A stretch of DNA of 35,864 nt from a virus. Shown here piece after piece: positions 5,992 to 14,414 of this stretch. Both the position numbers and the translations under genes were made by a program. The notes beneath the pieces are model-generated. The model was not told the DNA's origin, ran no database searches, and worked only from the letters and a program-made list of their open reading frames with translations. Within the stretch, counting starts at the first letter, position 1; each line of letters begins with the position of its first letter. Location of the stretch: UHGV virus genome UHGV-0042415; one strand, 5' to 3'.

Positions 5992-6308
5992 AGTATGCCG
6001 TTCTCACAAAAAAACCGCTTGCCATGCCGCAATCAGTCAGGTTACATTTCCGCTGCACCTCATAAAACGGGTGCCGGGATTGGAACCCCGCAGACTAACA
6101 GAGCGCACAACCGCGCCAGCGGTTTTTTTGTGCGTACCGTATCGCCACGTCTTTTTCGCGTCAAAATTATGGTGGGGCGTACAGGGCCAGCATCAGCTGG
6201 GCCGGGTCCTCTGTTAGCCGGTAGTTCCAACCCTGTACGTCTCACCACCCCGAGCTTGGAACCTCTGGATGGTGAGTTTTCAAAACTGACTAACAGAGAG
6301 GCCACACC

Positions 6309-6980: not shown

Positions 6981-9779
6981 ATGACGGCAGAGTACATCAG
7001 GGACTGGCAACAGCCGCGCCACGCAGTGGGACGTGAAGGAACGGGGATCCCCGTTCCTGAATCCGCGCTTTCCTCCTGGCTGGATGCCTACCGGGCAGAG
7101 AACGAGCGCCGCCAGGAAATGGCTGATGCGGCGTTCTCCGCCACGCCGCTGGGCAACCTGATTAATAAAAGCCTGGATGCACAGGAAAAACAGGACAAAA
7201 CCATCACACTGGCAGGAGACGCCAGAAAACAGGTACGCGGTGCGGTGGATGAAGCCATGGCCTCGCTGCGCCTGCTGCCGTCCTATCTGCGCGATCCGCT
7301 TATTCGCCACCTCTCCTTCCTGCGCAAAAAACAGGAAGCCGATCGCCGGAAAGGCAAAAAGAGCTGGCAGGCTGAACGCTACGCGCGCGGAACCCTGCGC
7401 AAAATATTCGAACGTCTGGACCGCACCGACCACCGCTGGCTGACACCGGGTTATCGCTCCCTTGCCGGACGCGAACGCCTGGATGATTTGCTTTACCTGC
7501 CGCAGCTCAACAAGCACCAGATACAGACGCTGGCCACCATGACGGCGGCGATGTTCAGCAGCACCTTCGAAAAACTCTGCGATGGCTTTGGCGCGACTGA
7601 TGGCGAGCTGACCATGGAGGTAACGCTGAAGGCGTATCAGATGCTGGCCCGCATGGCGTTACACCTGCACGCCATGCCTCCGCATTATGACGCACTGACA
7701 ACAGACAAAGACCGGAGGAACGAACCGGACACGGAGTTGCTGCCGGGCGCAATCCTTCGCCTGACCTGTGCGGAATGGTGGAAACGCAAACTGTGGCTGT
7801 TACGTTGCGAGTGGCGGGAAGAACAACTCCGCGCCGCCTGTCTGGTTTCCAGAAAAACATCGCCCTATCTGAGCCAGGACGCGTTAAGCGAGTTTCGCGC
7901 ACAGCGCGAGAAAACACGCGATTTCCTGAAAAGTTTCATGCTGGAAAACGAAGACGGGTTCACGATTGATCTCGAGACGGTGTATTACGCGGGAGTAAGT
8001 AATCCGGTTCATCGTAAGGCAGAAATGATGGCCACCATGAAGGGGCTGGAACTTCTGGCCGAAGCCCGTGGCGACAAAGCGGTGTTTCTGACTGTCACCT
8101 GCCCGTCAAAATACCACGCCACAACAGAGAACGGTCATCCGAATCCCAAATGGAACGGGGCCACCATGCGCGACTCCAGCGATTACCTGGTTAACACGTT
8201 TTTTGCGGCGGTCCGCAAGAAACTGAACCGCGACGGCCTGCGCTGGTATGGCATCCGCACGGTGGAGCCTCACCATGACGGCACCGTGCACTGGCATATG
8301 ATGGTCTTTGCTCATCCGGAAGAAATCGACACCATTGTGTCCCACACCCGCGATATTGCCATTCAGGAAGATCGTCACGAGCTGGGTGATGATATTACCC
8401 CACGCTTTAAGGCGGAGTACGTCGACGGCTCAAAAGGCACACCGACCAGCTACATCGCCACCTACATCGGGAAAAACCTGGACAGCCGTGCCGTGGATGG
8501 CATCGACCCGAAAACGGGCAAGCCACGCGTTGACCACGAAACCGGAAAATCAATGGCCGAGAGCGTGGAACGCGCCATCGGCTGGGCGCGCCTTCACCGG
8601 GTCCGCCAGTTCCAGTTCTTTGGTATCCCCTCCCGTCAGGTGTGGCGTGAACTGCGCCGCCTTGCCAGCCAGATGGCTCGCAACCCGGAAGGACCGCAAC
8701 GGCTGAAGGATGACGCAATGGACGCGGTTCTTGCTTCCGCTGATGCCGGATGTTTTGCCACCTACATAGAGAAACAGGGCGGCGTACTTGTTCCACGCAA
8801 GGACTACCTGATTCGCACCGCCTACGACCTCGCAGATGAGCTGAACGATTACGGTGAACAGAGCGTACAGATTTACGGGATCTGGTCACCGCTCATCGGG
8901 GAGTCTTCCCGCGTATGCACGCATCCGGACAACTGGAAGCTGGTAAGACGCAAACCGGAAGCGGAAGACAGCGCCCGCGAAAATGGTTTTGACCTTCAGG
9001 GCGGCCCTGCCGCCCCTTGGACTCGTGGCAATAACTGTCCCCGTGTACAGGAAACGGACAACAACGGGACAGAACAGCCGGAAGAACGGCCAGCACCGTG
9101 GCCGCAGCTTCCTGACGGCGTTGACGTGAATGAATGGATGCGCTCACTGAAACGGCACGAACGCCGGGCGCTGATGCGTTCGCTGCGTGACAAACAGGCA
9201 AAAAACAGCAGTGATGAAATGCAGAACTGGACACAGAGCCGCAAACAGCCACAGCCTTTGCCTGATAACCACGAGTTACTCGCTAAAGAATGGCGGGAGT
9301 CTGCTGAATCTCTCGGCCTGCATATCGGTGAACAGCAGGTGCAGCACCTGTTACGGGGCGGCAGTCTGTACGTTGACGGCAGCATCATTGCACCGCAGGG
9401 ATTTGAAATTGTACGCAAACCGGATACCCGCCAGGACAGCCGAATCACGCAGCTCTGGCAACGCCTGAGCCGTAATCACGGCGTAAGCAGCACGGAGATC
9501 CGCCATAACCCGGTCGCCAGCTATCTGGAACAGCTGGGGGCATCAGACCCTGAAGCCGCCGCACGCCTGGCATCCACACTTCAGCAGGACCAGAACACCA
9601 TGAAAACACCCGTTACCGTGCTTTCTGACATGCTGCGCGCCATCCGCGACGCAGAGCACGCACAGAGAATCAGTGAAACCACTGAACGCGCCCGCCGCAA
9701 AGCAGACCTGCTGCGGGGTGGCCTGACCAGTGGAAACAAAAAAACAGACAGAAACGGGACTCACAAATCCCGTAAATGA
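6981..9779 (+). CDS. A: Rolling-circle replication initiator (P2 gpA-like endonuclease)
   Basis: 932 aa; HUH-type motif VHWHMMVF and paired catalytic tyrosines YIATYIGK as in P2 A-family initiators; long Q/R/E-rich C-terminal extension. Confidence 0.88.
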   Translation: MTAEYIRDWQQPRHAVGREGTGIPVPESALSSWLDAYRAENERRQEMADAAFSATPLGNLINKSLDAQEKQDKTITLAGDARKQVRGAVDEAMASLRLLPSYLRDPLIRHLSFLRKKQEADRRKGKKSWQAERYARGTLRKIFERLDRTDHRWLTPGYRSLAGRERLDDLLYLPQLNKHQIQTLATMTAAMFSSTFEKLCDGFGATDGELTMEVTLKAYQMLARMALHLHAMPPHYDALTTDKDRRNEPDTELLPGAILRLTCAEWWKRKLWLLRCEWREEQLRAACLVSRKTSPYLSQDALSEFRAQREKTRDFLKSFMLENEDGFTIDLETVYYAGVSNPVHRKAEMMATMKGLELLAEARGDKAVFLTVTCPSKYHATTENGHPNPKWNGATMRDSSDYLVNTFFAAVRKKLNRDGLRWYGIRTVEPHHDGTVHWHMMVFAHPEEIDTIVSHTRDIAIQEDRHELGDDITPRFKAEYVDGSKGTPTSYIATYIGKNLDSRAVDGIDPKTGKPRVDHETGKSMAESVERAIGWARLHRVRQFQFFGIPSRQVWRELRRLASQMARNPEGPQRLKDDAMDAVLASADAGCFATYIEKQGGVLVPRKDYLIRTAYDLADELNDYGEQSVQIYGIWSPLIGESSRVCTHPDNWKLVRRKPEAEDSARENGFDLQGGPAAPWTRGNNCPRVQETDNNGTEQPEERPAPWPQLPDGVDVNEWMRSLKRHERRALMRSLRDKQAKNSSDEMQNWTQSRKQPQPLPDNHELLAKEWRESAESLGLHIGEQQVQHLLRGGSLYVDGSIIAPQGFEIVRKPDTRQDSRITQLWQRLSRNHGVSSTEIRHNPVASYLEQLGASDPEAAARLASTLQQDQNTMKTPVTVLSDMLRAIRDAEHAQRISETTERARRKADLLRGGLTSGNKKTDRNGTHKSRK

Positions 9780-9880
9780 GCAAAAAACGTGCCGCGATAT
9801 ATGAAGCGCGCACAAAACAGGCAAAAGCGGGATTTAAAAATCCTGTAACCGATTAATTAATCAACATAAGGAAAAGCGAC

Positions 9881-10840
9881 ATGAAAATTTGTATCGACGA
9901 CGGCTCCACCAACATCAAGCTGGCATGGACTGAGAACGGCGAACGCCGCAACGCCATCAGCCCGAACAGCTTCAAGTCGGAATGGTCTGCGCCGTTCGGT
10001 GGCACGCAGCCCGCGAACTACATGCTTGATGGCGTGCGCTATGGTTTTGATCCGGTCAGCGATCGCTTTGTCCAGACGACCGACACGCAATACCAGTACA
10101 GCGATGTGAATATAATTGCCATTCATCACGCGCTGGTCAAATCAGGCATCACACCACAGGAAGTGGATGTGGTTGTCACCCTGCCACTGAGCGAGTATTT
10201 CGATACAAACGCACAGCCGGACATGGCCAACATCAACCGCAAAAAAGCGAACGTCATGCGCCCGGTGGAGTACCAGAACGGCGAAGCATTCACTATCCGT
10301 AACGTACGGGTTATGCCTGAATCCATTCCGGCTGGCTTTAAGGCACTGGCTGACATGAGTCCGTTTGAATCCCTGCTGATTGTGGATTTGGGCGGAACCA
10401 CGCTGGATGTGGCAAAGGTTCAGGGGCAACTGGCAGGTATCAGCCAGGTGTTTTGCGATCCACACGTGGGCGTTTCTCTGATGGCCGATGCCGTACTGTC
10501 GGTGATGGCCACTAACGGTATGCGCACCAGTCACCACATCGCCAATACCATTATCGAACATCGCCATGATGAAGCCTGGCTGCGCCAGCACATCCACAAT
10601 GACGCGCATTACGCCAGCCTGATGGCGGTAATTCGTGAAAAGGAAGAAACACTGAAACAACGCGTGATCCGCGCGCTGGCGGGTTTTTCGGGTTACGGGC
10701 GGGTGATGGTTGTCGGTGGAGGGGCGGAGATTGTGGCACCCGCTATCCGCGAAGCCTGCGGAGTTAATGCGACTTTCATCGCGGACGGGGTGCCACAGTT
10801 TGCTCTGGTTAATGGGCTGTACGCAATGGACAAGGAGTAA
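9881..10840 (+). CDS. parM: ParM/StbA-like actin-fold segregation ATPase
   Basis: 319 aa; N-terminus MKICIDDGSTNIKLAW closely matches plasmid R1 ParM (MLVFIDDGSTNIKLQW); phosphate-2 motif LIVDLGGTTLDVA; same length as ParM. Confidence 0.85.
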   Translation: MKICIDDGSTNIKLAWTENGERRNAISPNSFKSEWSAPFGGTQPANYMLDGVRYGFDPVSDRFVQTTDTQYQYSDVNIIAIHHALVKSGITPQEVDVVVTLPLSEYFDTNAQPDMANINRKKANVMRPVEYQNGEAFTIRNVRVMPESIPAGFKALADMSPFESLLIVDLGGTTLDVAKVQGQLAGISQVFCDPHVGVSLMADAVLSVMATNGMRTSHHIANTIIEHRHDEAWLRQHIHNDAHYASLMAVIREKEETLKQRVIRALAGFSGYGRVMVVGGGAEIVAPAIREACGVNATFIADGVPQFALVNGLYAMDKE

Positions 10841-10844
10841 ACCA

Positions 10845-11156
10845 ATGACGACTCCAACCAGACGGATAAGTTTCTATCTGAAGCCCACCGCCGTCAAGAA
10901 CGAAGGAGAAGCATGCGCCTGGCTGGACAGCCTTACACCAGAAGCCCGCAAAAGCGGCCAACGCGTGGCTTTTCTGGCCGGGCTGGCACTTCTGAAAATG
11001 AATCCGGCAGAGGCTTATCGACTGGCTGCATGGGCTGGTGATGAAGCGTTATCAGTGACACAAACCAGGACAGAACGCCCCGCATCACAGCCAGTATCAA
11101 CCGCACAGATAACCAGTCAGATGGCCGGAAATATCCGGGCGTTATTTCCTGAATAA
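10845..11156 (+). CDS. parR: ParR-like small DNA-binding adaptor protein
   Basis: 103 aa from the ATG at 10845 with SD aggag; RRISFYLKP...AFLAGLALLKMNP...IRALFPE resembles R1 ParR (RTIAFKLNP...AALTAGLALY...LRSLFPKE); directly follows parM. Confidence 0.65.
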   Translation: MTTPTRRISFYLKPTAVKNEGEACAWLDSLTPEARKSGQRVAFLAGLALLKMNPAEAYRLAAWAGDEALSVTQTRTERPASQPVSTAQITSQMAGNIRALFPE

Positions 11157-11219: not shown

Positions 11220-11603
11220 ATGAGCGAAATCAACTATCAGGCATTACGTGAACGTTATTCACCTGTGCCAGTACCGAAATGCCCTATTTGCGGCGAGGAA
11301 ATGTCAATTCAGCGAATATCTGGAGCACAGGTTGTTTATGCCTGCTCCGGTTATGGTGATGATGGAGATTTCAAAATTGGTCGAACTCTTGCCGACGAAC
11401 ATTATGAAAAATCACGCGTAACAGTGTTGGATGTCGGGGATCCTGAAGTATTGGCGCTACTTGATTGGCTGGAAACCAAAGACAACCGAATCGCTGAACT
11501 GGAAAAAATCGCCACTGACTATGCACTTAAATTCCAGAAAGCACAGGACGCATTAAAGTACGCCGCTTTGCTGCATAGCAGGACAGCGCAGCTAAAATAC
11601 TAA
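11220..11603 (+). CDS. Hypothetical protein with N-terminal Cys cluster and helical C-terminus
   Basis: 127 aa; CPICGEEM...YACSGYGDDGD; SD aaggag upstream. Confidence 0.6.
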   Translation: MSEINYQALRERYSPVPVPKCPICGEEMSIQRISGAQVVYACSGYGDDGDFKIGRTLADEHYEKSRVTVLDVGDPEVLALLDWLETKDNRIAELEKIATDYALKFQKAQDALKYAALLHSRTAQLKY

Positions 11604-11693
11604 CTTAAAGCGGAAGATTAATACATGGTGAGTCGGGGTAATTTGTTTTTATCCCGACAAATAAACAAAAAAGTGGACTATCTCTGTAGTATC

Positions 11694-12224
11694 TTATTCA
11701 GCATCGTCTCGTGCAGTCTGTGCATACGTCACAACAACGCCCAATGCATTAGTTTTCTTTTCAACATAGATAATATTGTCATATTCATAGTTACCATACG
11801 GATAGCAAATAAGAATATTTTTATGCAGTTCGGGATCATCAACAAACGCTCCGGAACAGCTTCTTGAACTACCAGATGTATACTCATACGGTGCAACATA
11901 TGATGATGTTACTCCTGGTAAAAAATAAGTCACCATCATAAGAGGGATAATCAGGAATATCCCTGTAAGAATGCAAGAGCCAGCATAAACCTTCAGGTAT
12001 TCCGACAGTCCTTTCCAGCCACTTTGCTTCACTACCCCCCTCTTCACCAGAAACAAGGAGAAGAAAAAGGACATACCCATACTACACAAGATGTAATAAT
12101 TGGATATACGCGAATTAAGATATGTAATCCTGTAGATATCTGCCCTCCACCAGTAAAAGAGGAAAATAATCCCTAGCACTGAAACAGTCATGCAAATCAA
12201 ATAAGGATATGAATCTTTCTTCAT
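11694..12224 (-). CDS. Three-TM inner-membrane protein with soluble C-terminal domain (AT-rich cargo)
   Basis: 176 aa; hydrophobic segments YLICMTVSVLGIIFLFYWW, YILCSMGMSFFFSLFLV, CILTGIFLIIPLMMVTYFL; strongly AT-rich gene on the strand opposite its neighbours. Confidence 0.7.
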   Translation of the reverse strand: MKKDSYPYLICMTVSVLGIIFLFYWWRADIYRITYLNSRISNYYILCSMGMSFFFSLFLVKRGVVKQSGWKGLSEYLKVYAGSCILTGIFLIIPLMMVTYFLPGVTSSYVAPYEYTSGSSRSCSGAFVDDPELHKNILICYPYGNYEYDNIIYVEKKTNALGVVVTYAQTARDDAE

Positions 12225-12828
12225 GTCTTGCGCTCATTAAAATTTCCCTGCTACGAACAAATTTACCATCCGTTTTTTGCGCAGAAAACAGCACGATGCA
12301 CACTGCACGATAGTGCACAAATTTGCACAATTTTTTTGAACGACTTTTTCCCCTTCCGGCCCGTATAGCGGCTGGATCCGTCAAGGATCCGTGCGTGCAC
12401 AAAAAAACGCGCTTTTTCTGCGCGCAGGTGACGGGGGAACAGCCCGCGTTTCAGGGGGTAAATAGCATTCCCTGAACGATGTCGCAGCGACACAACAGAA
12501 TGGCTGTATCGCTCACGCTGAGCGTGAAAAATACGTAAGGGGTTCTGATTTGATGGGGTGAAAGGTAAGGCCGTCAAATCGCAATGAGACGGCGAGAACA
12601 TGCTGTCAGCTCGATGGGATTGCGTAAGAGTCTGGCCATCGATGATGGCGATAAGTTGGAAGACGTCGTGAAATTATCTGATTGATACGGGTGCTGGAGA
12701 GTCGGGGCATAAATTTTTTATGCCCCGGCGAAGCAGCAGACAAGCGAAGCGCGTCAGTGATGCGGCACCTTGCCGACCACACTCCATAAGTGCAAAATAC
12801 GAGCAAAGAAATCAATGGAGGCTGTTTT

Positions 12829-13353
12829 ATGGTCATTAATTACAAGCAGTTACGAGAAAAACGAGAGCAGGTAAAGGAAAGTTTTCGCCGCAATGAAGAT
12901 CTGACCCCGCTTGTACACCTTGCCCAGGGAATTGTTGATGCTTATGAAATCTCTCTGGAGCTGCCATCACAGACATGGACGGATAGCGACGGTAATCGCC
13001 AGCATTACGTTTCATGCGGACTGGAAACAACTGAAGGGTTTCGCAGAATGCCTTTATCTCAGATTCCTGCCGCTACCCCCAAAGCAAGGGGCGGCAATGA
13101 TGAGCGAAAACTGATTTTTAGCATTGAGACAGTGGTTGACGACACACCTGGCGAAGTCGCGTTCGTGCATACTCCTCTTTCGATCGCAATGTATAACGAT
13201 GAAATACAGGTTCGCGTTAATAATAATATCGTGCCACTTAAAGAAGGTAATTCACCCTACACCACCGTTTGTGAAGCCATTCAATATTACGTTCTCTCTG
13301 AAATTGATAATCTCAAGCCTGACGGCACCCAGAAAATGGTTCAACTCTGGTAA
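12829..13353 (+). CDS. Hypothetical soluble protein between the putative cos region and the portal gene
   Basis: 174 aa from the ATG at 12829 with SD ggagg (the ORF track starts at an upstream GTG); followed by its own terminator. Confidence 0.6.
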   Translation: MVINYKQLREKREQVKESFRRNEDLTPLVHLAQGIVDAYEISLELPSQTWTDSDGNRQHYVSCGLETTEGFRRMPLSQIPAATPKARGGNDERKLIFSIETVVDDTPGEVAFVHTPLSIAMYNDEIQVRVNNNIVPLKEGNSPYTTVCEAIQYYVLSEIDNLKPDGTQKMVQLW

Positions 13354-13359
13354 TAAGGA

Positions 13360-13384
13360 CAGCCCCATCACGGGGCTGTTTTTT
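13360..13384 (+). terminator. Rho-independent terminator
   Basis: cagcccc-atcac-ggggctg stem followed by TTTTTT; overlaps the portal stop codon. Confidence 0.7.
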
Positions 13385-14414
13385 CATCAAGAAGTGCATA
13401 AGAGTTAAAACGGATCACCTCTTCGCCAAGCCAGTCATTGATGTGCTTCATGGCCTCCATGACGGGCATCAGCTCGTTAATTGCGTAAACCCGCGCGGCC
13501 TTCTCCACATCACCAAACGCACTTTTTTCACCCGGCATCGCCCCCATCAGTTGCGGCGGAACGCGGTGCGCAGCCAGCACATCATCACGGGATGCCGCCT
13601 TAACATTCATGAACTCATCCTTTGCGGTGATCTGCTGGAACGGCAAAATTTGCACCCCCTCTTTGCCCCCGTTGGGCGCATGAATGAGCACGTTTTTAAA
13701 CGCACCACCACCACGTGCCCCCTGTAGCGTTTCTTTCAGGGAGTCCATGCTTTCGCGGTTTACCTGCGCTGCACCGATGTAGATGATGCACCCGGCGTGG
13801 GATCCGTTGTCGTAATACAGTTTTCTGAACATGTCCGCCGAATGAGACAGGCTGGCCGAGAGTAATGCGCCAAGATATTCCGGCATGCCGTAAATTTCCT
13901 GGTTAATGTCAGGATTCATCAGGTGGCACACTTTACCAGGGCGAAACTGAAACGCATCCTTGCCATCCTGCACATACCACCATGATTCAAGATCGCTTCC
14001 GCGTCGCATGTATTTCGCCAGGGCGTGCCGTAATTTAAGCGGTTCGCCGAGCATATTGCTCCGAAGCTCAAGGAATGCGTTACCGAACACAAACCAGTCC
14101 AGCGCCAGCGCCGAGAAATCCTGCCGGGAAAGCAGCGGGTGCGGAATGTAGCAACCGAGCAATACATTACGCTTAAAGTAAAGCGCAGACTGATGCCAGG
14201 ACGTTTGCCGGGCAGCTCTTGCCAGACCGTACCAGTCCACCGGGGTTTCATACCACCGCCCGTTATCAGCACAGTACATGTTGTCCAGCAGGTCATGCCC
14301 GGTCAGGCGATAAGGACCATCAAATGTGAATGCACTGAGCGATGATTCTTTCCTGAGCGCATCAGCGAGATCAATGCGTGAACTCATGCGCACTTTTTTA
14401 TTTTTTCTGCTCAT
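13368..14414 (-). CDS. Q: Portal protein (P2 gpQ-like)
   Basis: 348 aa; size and sequence resemble P2 Q; 1-nt overlap with the terminase gene; leftward orientation as in P2. Confidence 0.9.
   Translation of the reverse strand: MSRKNKKVRMSSRIDLADALRKESSLSAFTFDGPYRLTGHDLLDNMYCADNGRWYETPVDWYGLARAARQTSWHQSALYFKRNVLLGCYIPHPLLSRQDFSALALDWFVFGNAFLELRSNMLGEPLKLRHALAKYMRRGSDLESWWYVQDGKDAFQFRPGKVCHLMNPDINQEIYGMPEYLGALLSASLSHSADMFRKLYYDNGSHAGCIIYIGAAQVNRESMDSLKETLQGARGGGAFKNVLIHAPNGGKEGVQILPFQQITAKDEFMNVKAASRDDVLAAHRVPPQLMGAMPGEKSAFGDVEKAARVYAINELMPVMEAMKHINDWLGEEVIRFNSYALLDEKTAP

What the first reader, a model, noticed from the sequence alone, without database searches (positions are those of the whole stretch)
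12829..13384. Unknown 174 aa gene with its own terminator between the putative cos region and the portal gene
Canonical P2 has no gene between cos and Q that I recall. Here a well-formed gene (good SD, strong terminator at 13360..13384) occupies that slot. It is soluble, has no recognisable motif, and is oriented opposite to Q/P. Together with the membrane-protein island it may form a bipartite cargo locus flanking cos.
Basis: partly seen in the sequence, partly recalled or inferred. Interest (0 to 1): 0.45.

Follow-up and report, generated by a model that had tools for sequence, protein, structure and literature searches.

The report
Orphan prophage cargo gene beside portal
A real, well-conserved 174-residue gene of unknown function has been inserted as a self-contained unit at the end of the portal gene of a P2-like E. 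coli prophage; it lies in an already published cargo hotspot, so it is a candidate for testing, not a surprise.

Summary
Window 12829-13353 (+) is a 174-aa ORF with a GGAGG Shine-Dalgarno site and an intrinsic terminator (13357-13384). The loop of that terminator contains the stop codon of the convergent portal gene.

The window is a P88-like (Xuanwuvirus) prophage of E. coli M8. In P88 itself, a conserved 455-bp non-coding block (12303-12757) runs straight into the portal stop. Here about 610 bp are inserted at that point. Of 1146 complete E. coli genomes with this junction, 397 (35%) carry the gene, always at this site.

dN/dS is 0.09. A promoter-like element and a terminator are also present in the Salmonella ortholog, which is 63% identical.

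The protein belongs only to PHROG 5091 (unknown function). It has no Pfam, NCBIfam or PADLOC hit. A confident AF2 model finds no significant structural neighbour. Distant relatives are single genes at cargo ("moron") sites of other Enterobacterales prophages, with no constant partner gene.

The A-to-Q interval is the P2 hotspot published by Rousset et al. (2022), and their Table S5 lists this protein as "hypothetical". The membrane-protein island varies independently of the gene.

My best guess (about 0.4) is a lysogen-expressed, binding-type anti-phage protein. Its function has not been tested.

The parts
12303..12757 (.). Conserved non-coding block between the variable cargo and the portal gene. 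It is presumed to be the cos / terminase-recognition region, but the exact cos site is not mapped.
   Evidence: It is about 91-93% identical in P88-like phages, while the DNA on both sides is replaced. At least 80% of it is present in 1102 of 5426 complete E. coli genomes. The linear public record P88_4B11 opens at window 12348/12349. The Salmonella P2-like prophage keeps the same motifs.
12427..12445 (+). Candidate cohesive-end-like G-rich 19-mer, GGTGACGGGGGAACAGCCC. This is uncertain.
   Evidence: It is identical in the Salmonella relative although the flanks differ. However, its 13/19 match to the P2 cos is no better than chance in this window (12 such sites found; shuffles give about 7).
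12704..12727 (.). Conserved GC-rich hairpin (GGGGCATAAA-TTTTTT-ATGCCCC region) with no U-tract after it on either strand. In gene-less relatives it lies about 45 nt beyond the portal stop.
   Evidence: Fold of -22.2 kcal/mol, z = -5.1. Invariant in the four-phage alignment.
12758..12767 (.). Left junction of the insertion. It is a remnant of the ancestral portal stop region (TCAG-TGATGCGG here, TCAG-GATGTGG in P88).
   Evidence: Alignment with P88.
12770..12798 (+). Promoter-like element inside the inserted module: TTGCCG (12770-12775), 17 nt, CAAAAT (12793-12798). That is 8 of 12 consensus positions.
   Evidence: Read from the sequence. It is below the scanner's 9/12 threshold. CTTG(C/T)C and GCAAAATA keep the same spacing upstream of the Salmonella ortholog, while the rest of the upstream DNA has diverged. 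No transcript data are available.
12817..12821 (+). Shine-Dalgarno GGAGG, 7 nt upstream of the ATG.
   Evidence: Conserved in EC958 and PhiR44_2; GGAG in Salmonella.
12829..13353 (+). CDS of 174 aa (WP_001407222), a PHROG 5091 member of unknown function. It is soluble and mildly acidic (pI 5.0). The predicted fold is two N-terminal helices, an antiparallel beta-sheet and a C-terminal helix. T101, V102, D104, D105 and P107 (TVVDDTP, residues 101-107) at a beta-hairpin tip are invariant in alignment A5; only T101 and V102 are invariant in the wider alignment A3.
13357..13384 (+). Intrinsic terminator of the 174-aa gene. Its loop holds the portal stop codon (13368-13370), and its right arm plus T-run encode the portal's last residues (…DEKTAP*).
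   Evidence: The Salmonella ortholog has a terminator of different sequence at the same position (CAGGCCTG-TTTA-CAGGCCTG, then TTATTATTT).
13368..14414 (-). Portal gene (gpQ homologue), convergent neighbour. Its C-terminal tail is altered by the insertion (LLDEKTAP* here, LLDTQPTS* in P88).

Best explanation
The gene is a 'moron': an extra, self-contained transcription unit made of a weak sigma-70-like promoter, a Shine-Dalgarno site, one gene and an intrinsic terminator. It was inserted by illegitimate recombination into the last codons of the portal gene of a P88-like (P2-family) temperate phage. That site lies inside the known gpA-gpQ cargo hotspot, on the portal side of the conserved cos-proximal block.

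Shown here: the anatomy, the presence/absence polymorphism, purifying selection, the lack of any conserved partner gene, and that relatives are found only in prophages or temperate phages.

Inferred: the unit is transcribed from the repressed prophage, independently of the late operon it faces. Its product is a small, cytoplasmic, probably non-enzymatic alpha/beta protein. It benefits the lysogen by binding a protein (or a small ligand) of a superinfecting phage and blocking its growth. That would make it a one-protein exclusion or defence function, in the manner of P2 Tin or the Tai/Tab proteins. The conserved hairpin tip (D104/D105/P107) and the invariant aromatic residues (Y39, W50, Y60) would form the binding surface.

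Confidence is about 0.9 for 'autonomous accessory cargo gene' and about 0.4 for the anti-phage function.
For: Insertion and polymorphism:
- P88 and P88_4B11 lack the module, and their conserved block abuts the portal stop.
- 397 of 1146 E. coli genomes with this junction have the gene. All 397 copies are at this junction. The others listed are empty junctions.

Autonomy:
- It has its own terminator.
- A terminator of different sequence sits at the same place in Salmonella.
- The promoter-like hexamers are conserved in Salmonella.
- GC content is 45.5%, against 51.9% for the window and about 54% for neighbouring core genes.
- Relatives in lambdoid prophages also have a terminator just after the stop codon (three of four scanned) and one just upstream (three of four).

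Real protein: dN/dS of 0.088; the family has invariant residues.

Stand-alone gene. The neighbours differ in every context:
- next to the portal gene in E. coli and Salmonella P2-like phages;
- after gpA, beside HicB and Phd/Fic, in Trabulsiella;
- between the late antiterminator and the lysis genes in Yersinia, Morganella, Klebsiella, Xenorhabdus lircayensis and some IMG/VR contigs;
- after the lysis genes in an E. coli lambdoid prophage;
- between the tail chaperone and the tape-measure gene in a Xenorhabdus myovirus.

Temperate phages only: tblastn against 50,697 phage records finds only P88-like phages plus one other.

Hotspot precedent:
- old and tin lie in the same interval of P2.
- 6 of 8 unknown P4 loci were protective (PMC13586616).
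- Single-gene prophage defences missed by PADLOC and DefenseFinder exist at packaging-proximal moron loci, namely Tai (PMC11364771).

Against: - There are no experimental data for any family member.
- No member hits PADLOC.
- The promoter matches only 8 of 12 positions and has no expression evidence.
- In lambdoid prophages the relatives are co-oriented with the late operon, and could be late lytic genes.
- Strong purifying selection shows no arms-race signature between the two E. coli alleles compared.
- Machine-learning scores flagged only 15-32% of unknown P2 proteins as defensive (PMC13586616).
Confidence: 0.4

Rival explanations
1. It is a counter-defence protein. The small soluble product binds and inhibits a host immune effector, or sequesters an immune signalling nucleotide (a 'sponge' like Tad1/Acb2), helping the carrier phage during infection or induction.
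For: - Relatives in lambdoid prophages sit in the late region, co-oriented with the lysis and packaging genes.
- In the Morganella prophage an Acb2/Tad1-hairpin gene lies in the same late accessory region.
- It is small and mildly acidic (median pI 5.0), with invariant aromatic residues (Y39, W50, Y60) and acidic residues (D104, D105; invariant in A5) that could line a ligand pocket.
Against: - Family members were found only in prophages or temperate phages, none in virulent phages.
- Terminators on both sides insulate the gene, which fits prophage expression better than co-expression with late genes.
- The structural similarities are far below significance.
- The charge is not that of a DNA mimic.
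Confidence: 0.2
2. It is a lysogenic-conversion factor unrelated to phage conflict. Expressed from the prophage, it modulates a host process (stress response, metabolism, surface structure assembly, colonisation).
For: - It has the classic moron architecture.
- It is frequent in successful pathogenic lineages, namely ST131 (EC958, JJ1887) and O111.
- The same hotspot also carries non-defence cargo such as partition systems and cytolethal distending toxin (PMC9122126).
Against: - It has no signal peptide, no transmembrane segment and no toxin or effector domain.
- Lineage frequency may simply reflect the sampling bias of complete genomes.
- Nothing links the protein to any host pathway.
Confidence: 0.15
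3. It is an accessory factor for the phage's own life cycle, for example helping cos recognition or packaging, portal function, lysis timing or regulation. Its position beside cos and the portal gene would then be functional.
For: - It is always adjacent to the portal and the cos-proximal block in E. coli and Salmonella P2-like phages.
- Relatives lie near the lysis or packaging modules in lambdoid phages.
Against: - It is absent from 65% of otherwise near-identical junctions, and from P88, which is an inducible, plaque-forming phage (PMC6456863).
- It faces away from the late operon and has its own terminator.
- In Trabulsiella it sits after gpA, and in Xenorhabdus inside the tail genes, so its position is not constant.
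- No DNA-binding or other relevant domain is detected.
Confidence: 0.1
4. It interferes with phage satellites (P4-like elements or PICIs) that hijack the carrier phage's capsid and packaging machinery.
For: - It lies next to cos, the only region shared between P2-like helpers and P4-like satellites (PMC9122126).
- Relatives occur near the packaging modules of lambdoid phages, which I recall being hijacked by PICIs (not checked here).
Against: This is purely positional. I know of no precedent family, and nothing in the protein points to it.
Confidence: 0.04

Closest known systems
Cargo of the P2 gpA-gpQ hotspot (Rousset et al. 2022, PMC9122126), with P2 old and tin as prototypes
   Same: It lies between the replication gene A and the portal gene Q of a P2-family prophage, next to the cos region. 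It is variable among close relatives and is a non-essential accessory gene. This very protein is listed in that paper's Table S5.
   Different: - old and tin lie on the A side of cos and are transcribed in the same direction as Q. This gene lies on the portal side of the conserved block and converges on Q.
- It has no sequence similarity to Tin or to any PADLOC model.
- It was not found in the paper's table of tested systems (Table S2).
- Its activity is unknown.
Tai (tail assembly inhibition) proteins, e.g. TaiEcA of phage phi80 (He et al. 2024, PMC11364771)
   Same: Tai are single-gene prophage morons, mostly upstream of the packaging module or at cos-proximal hotspots. They are found in Enterobacterales prophages, including Yersinia frederiksenii. 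PADLOC and DefenseFinder do not detect them. They act by protein binding, not catalysis.
   Different: The family HMM finds no match in any phi80 reading frame (best E = 0.037, in an unrelated ORF). This gene is therefore not a Tai or Ati homologue by sequence. No adjacent counter-defence partner is seen. Its target and phenotype are unknown.
Morons in the sense of Juhala/Hendrix (extra genes with their own promoter and terminator, e.g. lambda bor/lom, HK97 gp15) - from my own knowledge
   Same: It is present in some genomes and exactly absent from close relatives. It is flanked by a promoter-like element and an intrinsic terminator, and has lower GC than its surroundings.
   Different: The promoter is only inferred. 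The insertion overlaps and rewrites the last codons of an essential gene (the portal gene), so the terminator doubles as portal coding sequence.
PHROG 5091
   Same: Full-length match at E = 6.8e-67. All ten distant relatives tested fall in the same PHROG.
   Different: The PHROG has no functional annotation, so membership says nothing about mechanism.

Membership tests
Moron (autonomous accessory transcription unit in a phage genome) | Present in some phages and precisely absent from close relatives | tested here: met
   Absent from P88 and P88_4B11 with clean junctions. Of 1146 E. coli junctions, 397 are occupied and the others listed are empty.
Moron (autonomous accessory transcription unit in a phage genome) | Own intrinsic terminator downstream | tested here: met
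   Hairpin 13359-13379 plus a T-run, -21.3 kcal/mol, z = -4.8. Non-homologous terminators sit at the same place in Salmonella and after three of four lambdoid relatives.
Moron (autonomous accessory transcription unit in a phage genome) | Own promoter that is active in the lysogen | tested here: inconclusive
   TTGCCG-17-CAAAAT matches 8 of 12 positions and was not called by the scanner. The hexamers and their spacing are conserved in Salmonella. No transcript data are available.
Moron (autonomous accessory transcription unit in a phage genome) | Base composition different from the surrounding core genes | tested here: met
   ORF GC is 45.5% and module GC is 46.0%, against 51.9% for the window and 53-56% for the portal and terminase region.
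P2 gpA-gpQ hotspot cargo (Rousset 2022) | Located between the replication endonuclease gene A and the portal gene Q of a P2-like prophage | tested here: met
   RefSeq annotation of the identical locus. Listed in Table S5 of PMC9122126 for NZ_CP019953.
P2 gpA-gpQ hotspot cargo (Rousset 2022) | Confers resistance to phage infection | not testable with these tools
   This needs plaque assays. The accessions were not found in the paper's table of tested systems.
Known anti-phage defence families (PADLOC-DB 2.0) | Significant match to a defence-protein HMM | tested here: not met
   No hits at E <= 1 for the protein, and none at E <= 0.1 for eight relatives.
Tai / Ati (phi80 orf63 / orf64) | Sequence homology to TaiEcA or AtiEcA | tested here: not met
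   The family HMM was run against all reading frames of phi80 with filters off. Nothing fell below E = 0.037, and that hit is in an unrelated ORF.
P2 Tin | Sequence homology to Tin | tested here: not met
   BLASTP best E = 0.096 over 24 residues.
PHROG 5091 | Full-length match to the family profile | tested here: met
   E = 6.8e-67, residues 1-168 against profile positions 1-164 of 164.
Pfam / NCBIfam curated families | Match above the curated threshold | tested here: not met
   No families at E <= 1. Ten distant relatives give only sub-threshold noise.

The most novel reading that the evidence does not exclude
PHROG 5091 is a previously unrecognised family of one-protein phage-conflict factors, either defence or counter-defence. 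It has a fold with no characterised relative. It is carried as an autonomous moron by P2-like, lambdoid and myovirus-type prophages of Enterobacterales, and is present in about 7% of complete E. coli genomes, including ST131 and O111 lineages. It would act by direct binding through its conserved hairpin tip (D104/D105/P107) and aromatic residues (Y39, W50, Y60).
Probability: 0.5. Interest if true: 0.5.

Novelty: new member of a known kind. Interest (0 to 1): 0.3.

Why it matters
If the protein blocks other phages, or blocks host immunity, it would add a compact single-gene system to the catalogue. It has an uncharacterised fold and sits in prophages of clinically dominant E. coli lineages such as ST131 and O111, which is relevant to phage-therapy host range.

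The locus also gives a clean example of how a moron is acquired. The junction shows a short shared motif with the 3' end of an essential gene. The terminator hairpin was co-opted as the portal's new C-terminal codons.

As it stands, this is one more unannotated gene in a well-described hotspot.

Tried and rejected
- P2-type cos. The 19-mer GGCGAGGCGGGGAAAGCAC is absent at up to 3 mismatches, and its 13-nt core matches no better than chance. The 13/19 match at 12427-12445 is not above chance. BLAST of the P2 cos junction against the region gave only weak hits, mostly on the reverse strand. The cos site is therefore not pinned. Two candidates remain: the opening of the P88_4B11 record at 12348/9, and the conserved G-rich 19-mer.
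- Sequence families. Pfam, NCBIfam and PADLOC returned nothing.
- PDB by sequence profile. The only hits were to de novo designed helical repeat proteins over residues 125-169. I regard them as spurious and rejected them.
- Homology to Tai/Ati of phi80 and to P2 Tin. Both were negative.
- Functional coupling with the membrane-protein island. Rejected.
- DNA-mimic idea. Rejected: the pI is about 5 and the net charge is only -3 to -12.
The narrower alignment gave 3 genome loci and 6 viral loci.
- Literature search by accession found nothing. No supplementary files of the NAR 2026 paper were held.
- Rfam found nothing in the region.

Full report
**1. What is there**

Window 12829-13353 (+) is an ATG-initiated ORF of 174 codons. 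GGAGG lies at 12817-12821, seven bases before the ATG. The mechanical ORF list offers a longer GTG start at 12790. Every relative, however, begins M-x-I-x-Y at the position of the ATG, so the ATG is the real start.

Five bases after the TAA stop there is an 8-bp G+C-rich stem (13359-13366 and 13372-13379), a 5-nt loop, and a T-run to 13384. As RNA on the + strand it folds at -21.3 kcal/mol with z = -4.8. The consensus scanner did not list it, I think because extending the stem with G-T pairs uses up the T-run.

The convergent portal gene (13368-14414, minus strand) ends inside this hairpin. Its TGA is in the loop, and its last six codons (D-E-K-T-A-P) are the right arm plus the T-run.

**2. 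Where the window comes from**

The region is 100% identical to the chromosome of E. coli M8 (NZ_CP019953). There it is part of a prophage integrated next to yecA/tyrP, with the P2 gene order: int ... A, cargo, Q, P, O, N, M, L .... RefSeq calls the gene 'hypothetical protein' WP_001407222. The closest named phages are P88-like (Xuanwuvirus, Peduoviridae).

**3. It is an insertion**

I aligned the window with P88, P88_4B11 and PhiR44_2.

- Window 12303-12757 is a conserved non-coding block.
- In P88 and P88_4B11 this block runs directly into the portal stop codon.
- In the window and in PhiR44_2 about 610 bp are intercalated.

The left junction (12758-12767) still carries a remnant of the old portal stop region. 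At the right junction, the terminator's right arm (GGGGCTGT) aligns with P88's portal codons GGGCTGGGT. The portal tail has changed from LLDTQPTS* to LLDEKTAP*. Acquisition by illegitimate recombination at a short shared motif is a reasonable inference, but it is not shown.

P2 itself has only a terminator between cosL (1-19) and Q (187-1221).

**4. Population picture**

- The conserved block is present in about 1100 of 5426 complete E. coli genomes.
- A query spanning block, gene and portal finds 1146 genomes. In 397 of them (35%) the match is continuous. Those listed among the remainder match in two pieces covering 43% of the query, which means an empty junction.
- The gene alone is also found in exactly 397 genomes. 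In E. coli it therefore occurs only at this site.
- Carriers include ST131 (EC958, JJ1887) and O111 strains.
- The collection is biased towards clinical lineages, so these percentages are not population frequencies.

**5. It is a functional gene and an autonomous unit**

- The window allele and the PhiR44_2 allele differ by 18 synonymous and 6 non-synonymous changes, giving dN/dS = 0.088.
- A Salmonella P2-like prophage has a 63%-identical ortholog in the same slot, convergent with its portal gene.
- That ortholog is followed by a terminator of unrelated sequence. Its upstream DNA is otherwise diverged, yet it keeps CTTG(C/T)C and GCAAAATA at the same spacing as the window's TTGCCG (12770-12775), 17 nt, CAAAAT (12793-12798). 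This is an 8/12 match to the sigma-70 consensus. I treat it as a probable but unproven promoter.
- The ORF has 45.5% GC, against 51.9% for the window and 53-56% for the adjacent structural genes.

**6. The protein**

- It has no Pfam, NCBIfam or PADLOC family.
- Its one match is PHROG 5091, 'unknown function', over the full length at E = 6.8e-67.
- The word-indexed search of 5.8 billion proteins finds close relatives only in E. coli, Salmonella and Trabulsiella.
- An exhaustive profile search of 1.84 billion representatives finds 85 proteins, most of them 155-180 aa and aligned end to end.
- A second profile search names further relatives' hosts as Morganella, Xenorhabdus, Yersinia and Providencia. 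All are annotated 'hypothetical'.
- All ten distant relatives tested belong to the same PHROG, and none of the eight scanned hits PADLOC.
- Invariant or nearly invariant positions are Y5, Y39, S42, L43, W50, G55, Y60, V61, F97, T101, V102, D104, D105, P107 and C148.
- The proteins are soluble and mildly acidic, with a median pI of 5.0.
- Two AlphaFold2 models (pLDDT 80 and 82, pTM 0.73 and 0.75) agree on the fold: two N-terminal helices, an antiparallel sheet whose central hairpin tip carries the TVVDDTP motif, and a C-terminal helix.
- Foldseek against the PDB and BFVD finds nothing significant.
- The fold gives no hint of an enzyme and only a weak hint of a protein-binding module.

**7. Context of relatives**

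There is no conserved neighbour.

- P2-like phages. The gene sits next to the portal in E. coli and Salmonella. In Trabulsiella it sits immediately after gpA, followed by HicB and Phd/Fic genes.
- Lambdoid prophages and IMG/VR contigs. It usually lies between the late antiterminator and the holin. This is so in Yersinia, Morganella, Klebsiella, Xenorhabdus lircayensis and three viral contigs. In two cases it lies after the lysis cassette, upstream of the terminase where that gene was identified. It is always co-oriented with the late genes.
- Xenorhabdus bovienii and one viral contig. It lies between the tail chaperone and the tape-measure gene of a myovirus-type prophage.
- Of four lambdoid relatives scanned, three have an intrinsic terminator right after the stop codon and three have one just upstream. 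That is the same insulated-unit layout.
- Among 50,697 deposited phage genomes, only P88-like phages and one other E. coli phage carry a family member. I found none in a virulent phage.

**8. Relation to what is known**

The interval between gpA and gpQ is the cos-proximal hotspot of P2-like phages described by Rousset et al. (2022). They found 1,650 gene arrangements in 18,150 loci. About a quarter of P2-like phages carry the ParM/StbA partition module seen here (PMC9122126).

[quoted passage not shown] The ST131 arrangement with WP_000236495 appears at least 167 times in the stored part of the table. None of the accessions was found in their table of cloned systems.

A 2026 survey reports that 19% of P2-like elements lack recognisable defence genes but have unknown genes at the main locus. 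Machine-learning scores flag 15-32% of unknown P2 proteins as defensive (PMC13586616).

The gene is therefore catalogued but uncharacterised. The nuance added here is that it occupies its own fixed sub-slot on the portal side of the conserved block, separate from the variable cargo on the A side.

**9. The 'bipartite locus' idea**

Physically, two variable segments do flank the conserved block. They assort independently:

- O121:H19 prophages have the same Ea22-remnant and membrane-gene island but an empty portal junction.
- EC958 has the gene with a different island, DUF4760 plus a hypothetical protein.
- An O111:H8 strain has the gene with no island gene annotated.

There is no evidence of functional coupling.

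**10. Mechanism**

Shown: an autonomous, selectively maintained, partner-less accessory gene of temperate phages, sitting at cargo sites.

Inferred: it is expressed from the prophage, and it acts by binding rather than by catalysis.

My preferred reading (about 0.4) is a one-protein exclusion or defence function against other phages. This would be analogous in logic to P2 Tin, which lies in the same interval. It would also parallel the Tai proteins, which are single-gene prophage morons near packaging modules. Tai proteins are invisible to PADLOC and DefenseFinder and act by binding tail components (PMC11364771). The gene is not a sequence homologue of Tai/Ati or of Tin.

Rivals are counter-defence (0.2), a host-directed conversion factor (0.15), a life-cycle accessory (0.1) and anti-satellite interference (0.04). 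None can be excluded by computation.

**11. cos**

- The P2 19-mer is absent.
- The best P2-like 19-mer in the block (12427-12445) scores no better than chance, although it is identical in the Salmonella relative.
- One public linear record of a relative opens at window 12348/12349.

Whichever is right, the gene lies between the conserved block and the portal gene.

**12. Verdict**

The finding is real, and it is correctly described as an accessory gene in a slot that P2 and most relatives leave empty. It is an ordinary member of a known kind (a moron in the published P2 hotspot) whose function is unknown. It is worth a plaque-assay test but is not surprising. Interest 0.3.

Noticed in passing
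window 6055-6129 (+) and 6165-6252 (+): Rfam matches above the gathering score to isrK Hfq-binding RNA (72.4 bits) and C4 antisense RNA (78.5 bits), side by side in the early region of the prophage.
   Followed up: no
window 6981-9804 (+), 11220-11591 (+), 11694-12269 (-): RefSeq annotation of the identical M8 locus marks three genes as damaged: the replication endonuclease gpA as frameshifted, the Ea22-like gene as truncated, and the membrane-protein gene as frameshifted. This particular prophage may be decaying, even though the 174-aa gene is intact.
   Followed up: no
window ~11606-12361: The low-GC (37-40%) membrane-protein island is about 76% identical at DNA level to a 'putative membrane protein' segment of the lambdoid phages 434, mEp332 and 2B8. 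This indicates exchange of cargo between lambdoid and P2-like phages. It has no PADLOC hit.
   Followed up: partly
window 9881-10840 (+) and 10845-11156 (+): A ParM/StbA plus ParR-like (Plasmid_stab_B) partition module lies directly after gpA. Rousset et al. report it in about a quarter of P2-like phages and suggest plasmid-like maintenance.
   Followed up: no
window 13368-13388 (-): The portal protein's C-terminal residues differ between prophages with the gene (…LLDEKTAP*) and without it (…LLDTQPTS* in P88). In carriers these codons are the terminator hairpin of the inserted gene. Whether this alters portal function is unknown.
   Followed up: partly
window 12313-12328 (+) and 12407-12425 (-): There are two further terminator-like hairpins inside the conserved block: GTGCACAAATTTGCAC followed by T7 on the + strand, and GCGCGCAGAAAAAGCGCGT followed by T7 on the - strand. 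They would insulate the cos-proximal block from transcription coming from either side.
   Followed up: no
L012 9159-9395 (Morganella prophage): An Acb2/Tad1-hairpin (anti-CBASS/anti-Thoeris sponge) gene sits after the lysis cassette of the same lambdoid prophage that carries a PHROG 5091 relative between the antiterminator and the holin.
   Followed up: no
L017 6738-8053 (Trabulsiella P2-like prophage): Here the PHROG 5091 relative lies immediately after gpA. It is followed by a HicB antitoxin-like gene and a Phd/YefM-Fic pair, which is a different arrangement of the same hotspot.
   Followed up: no
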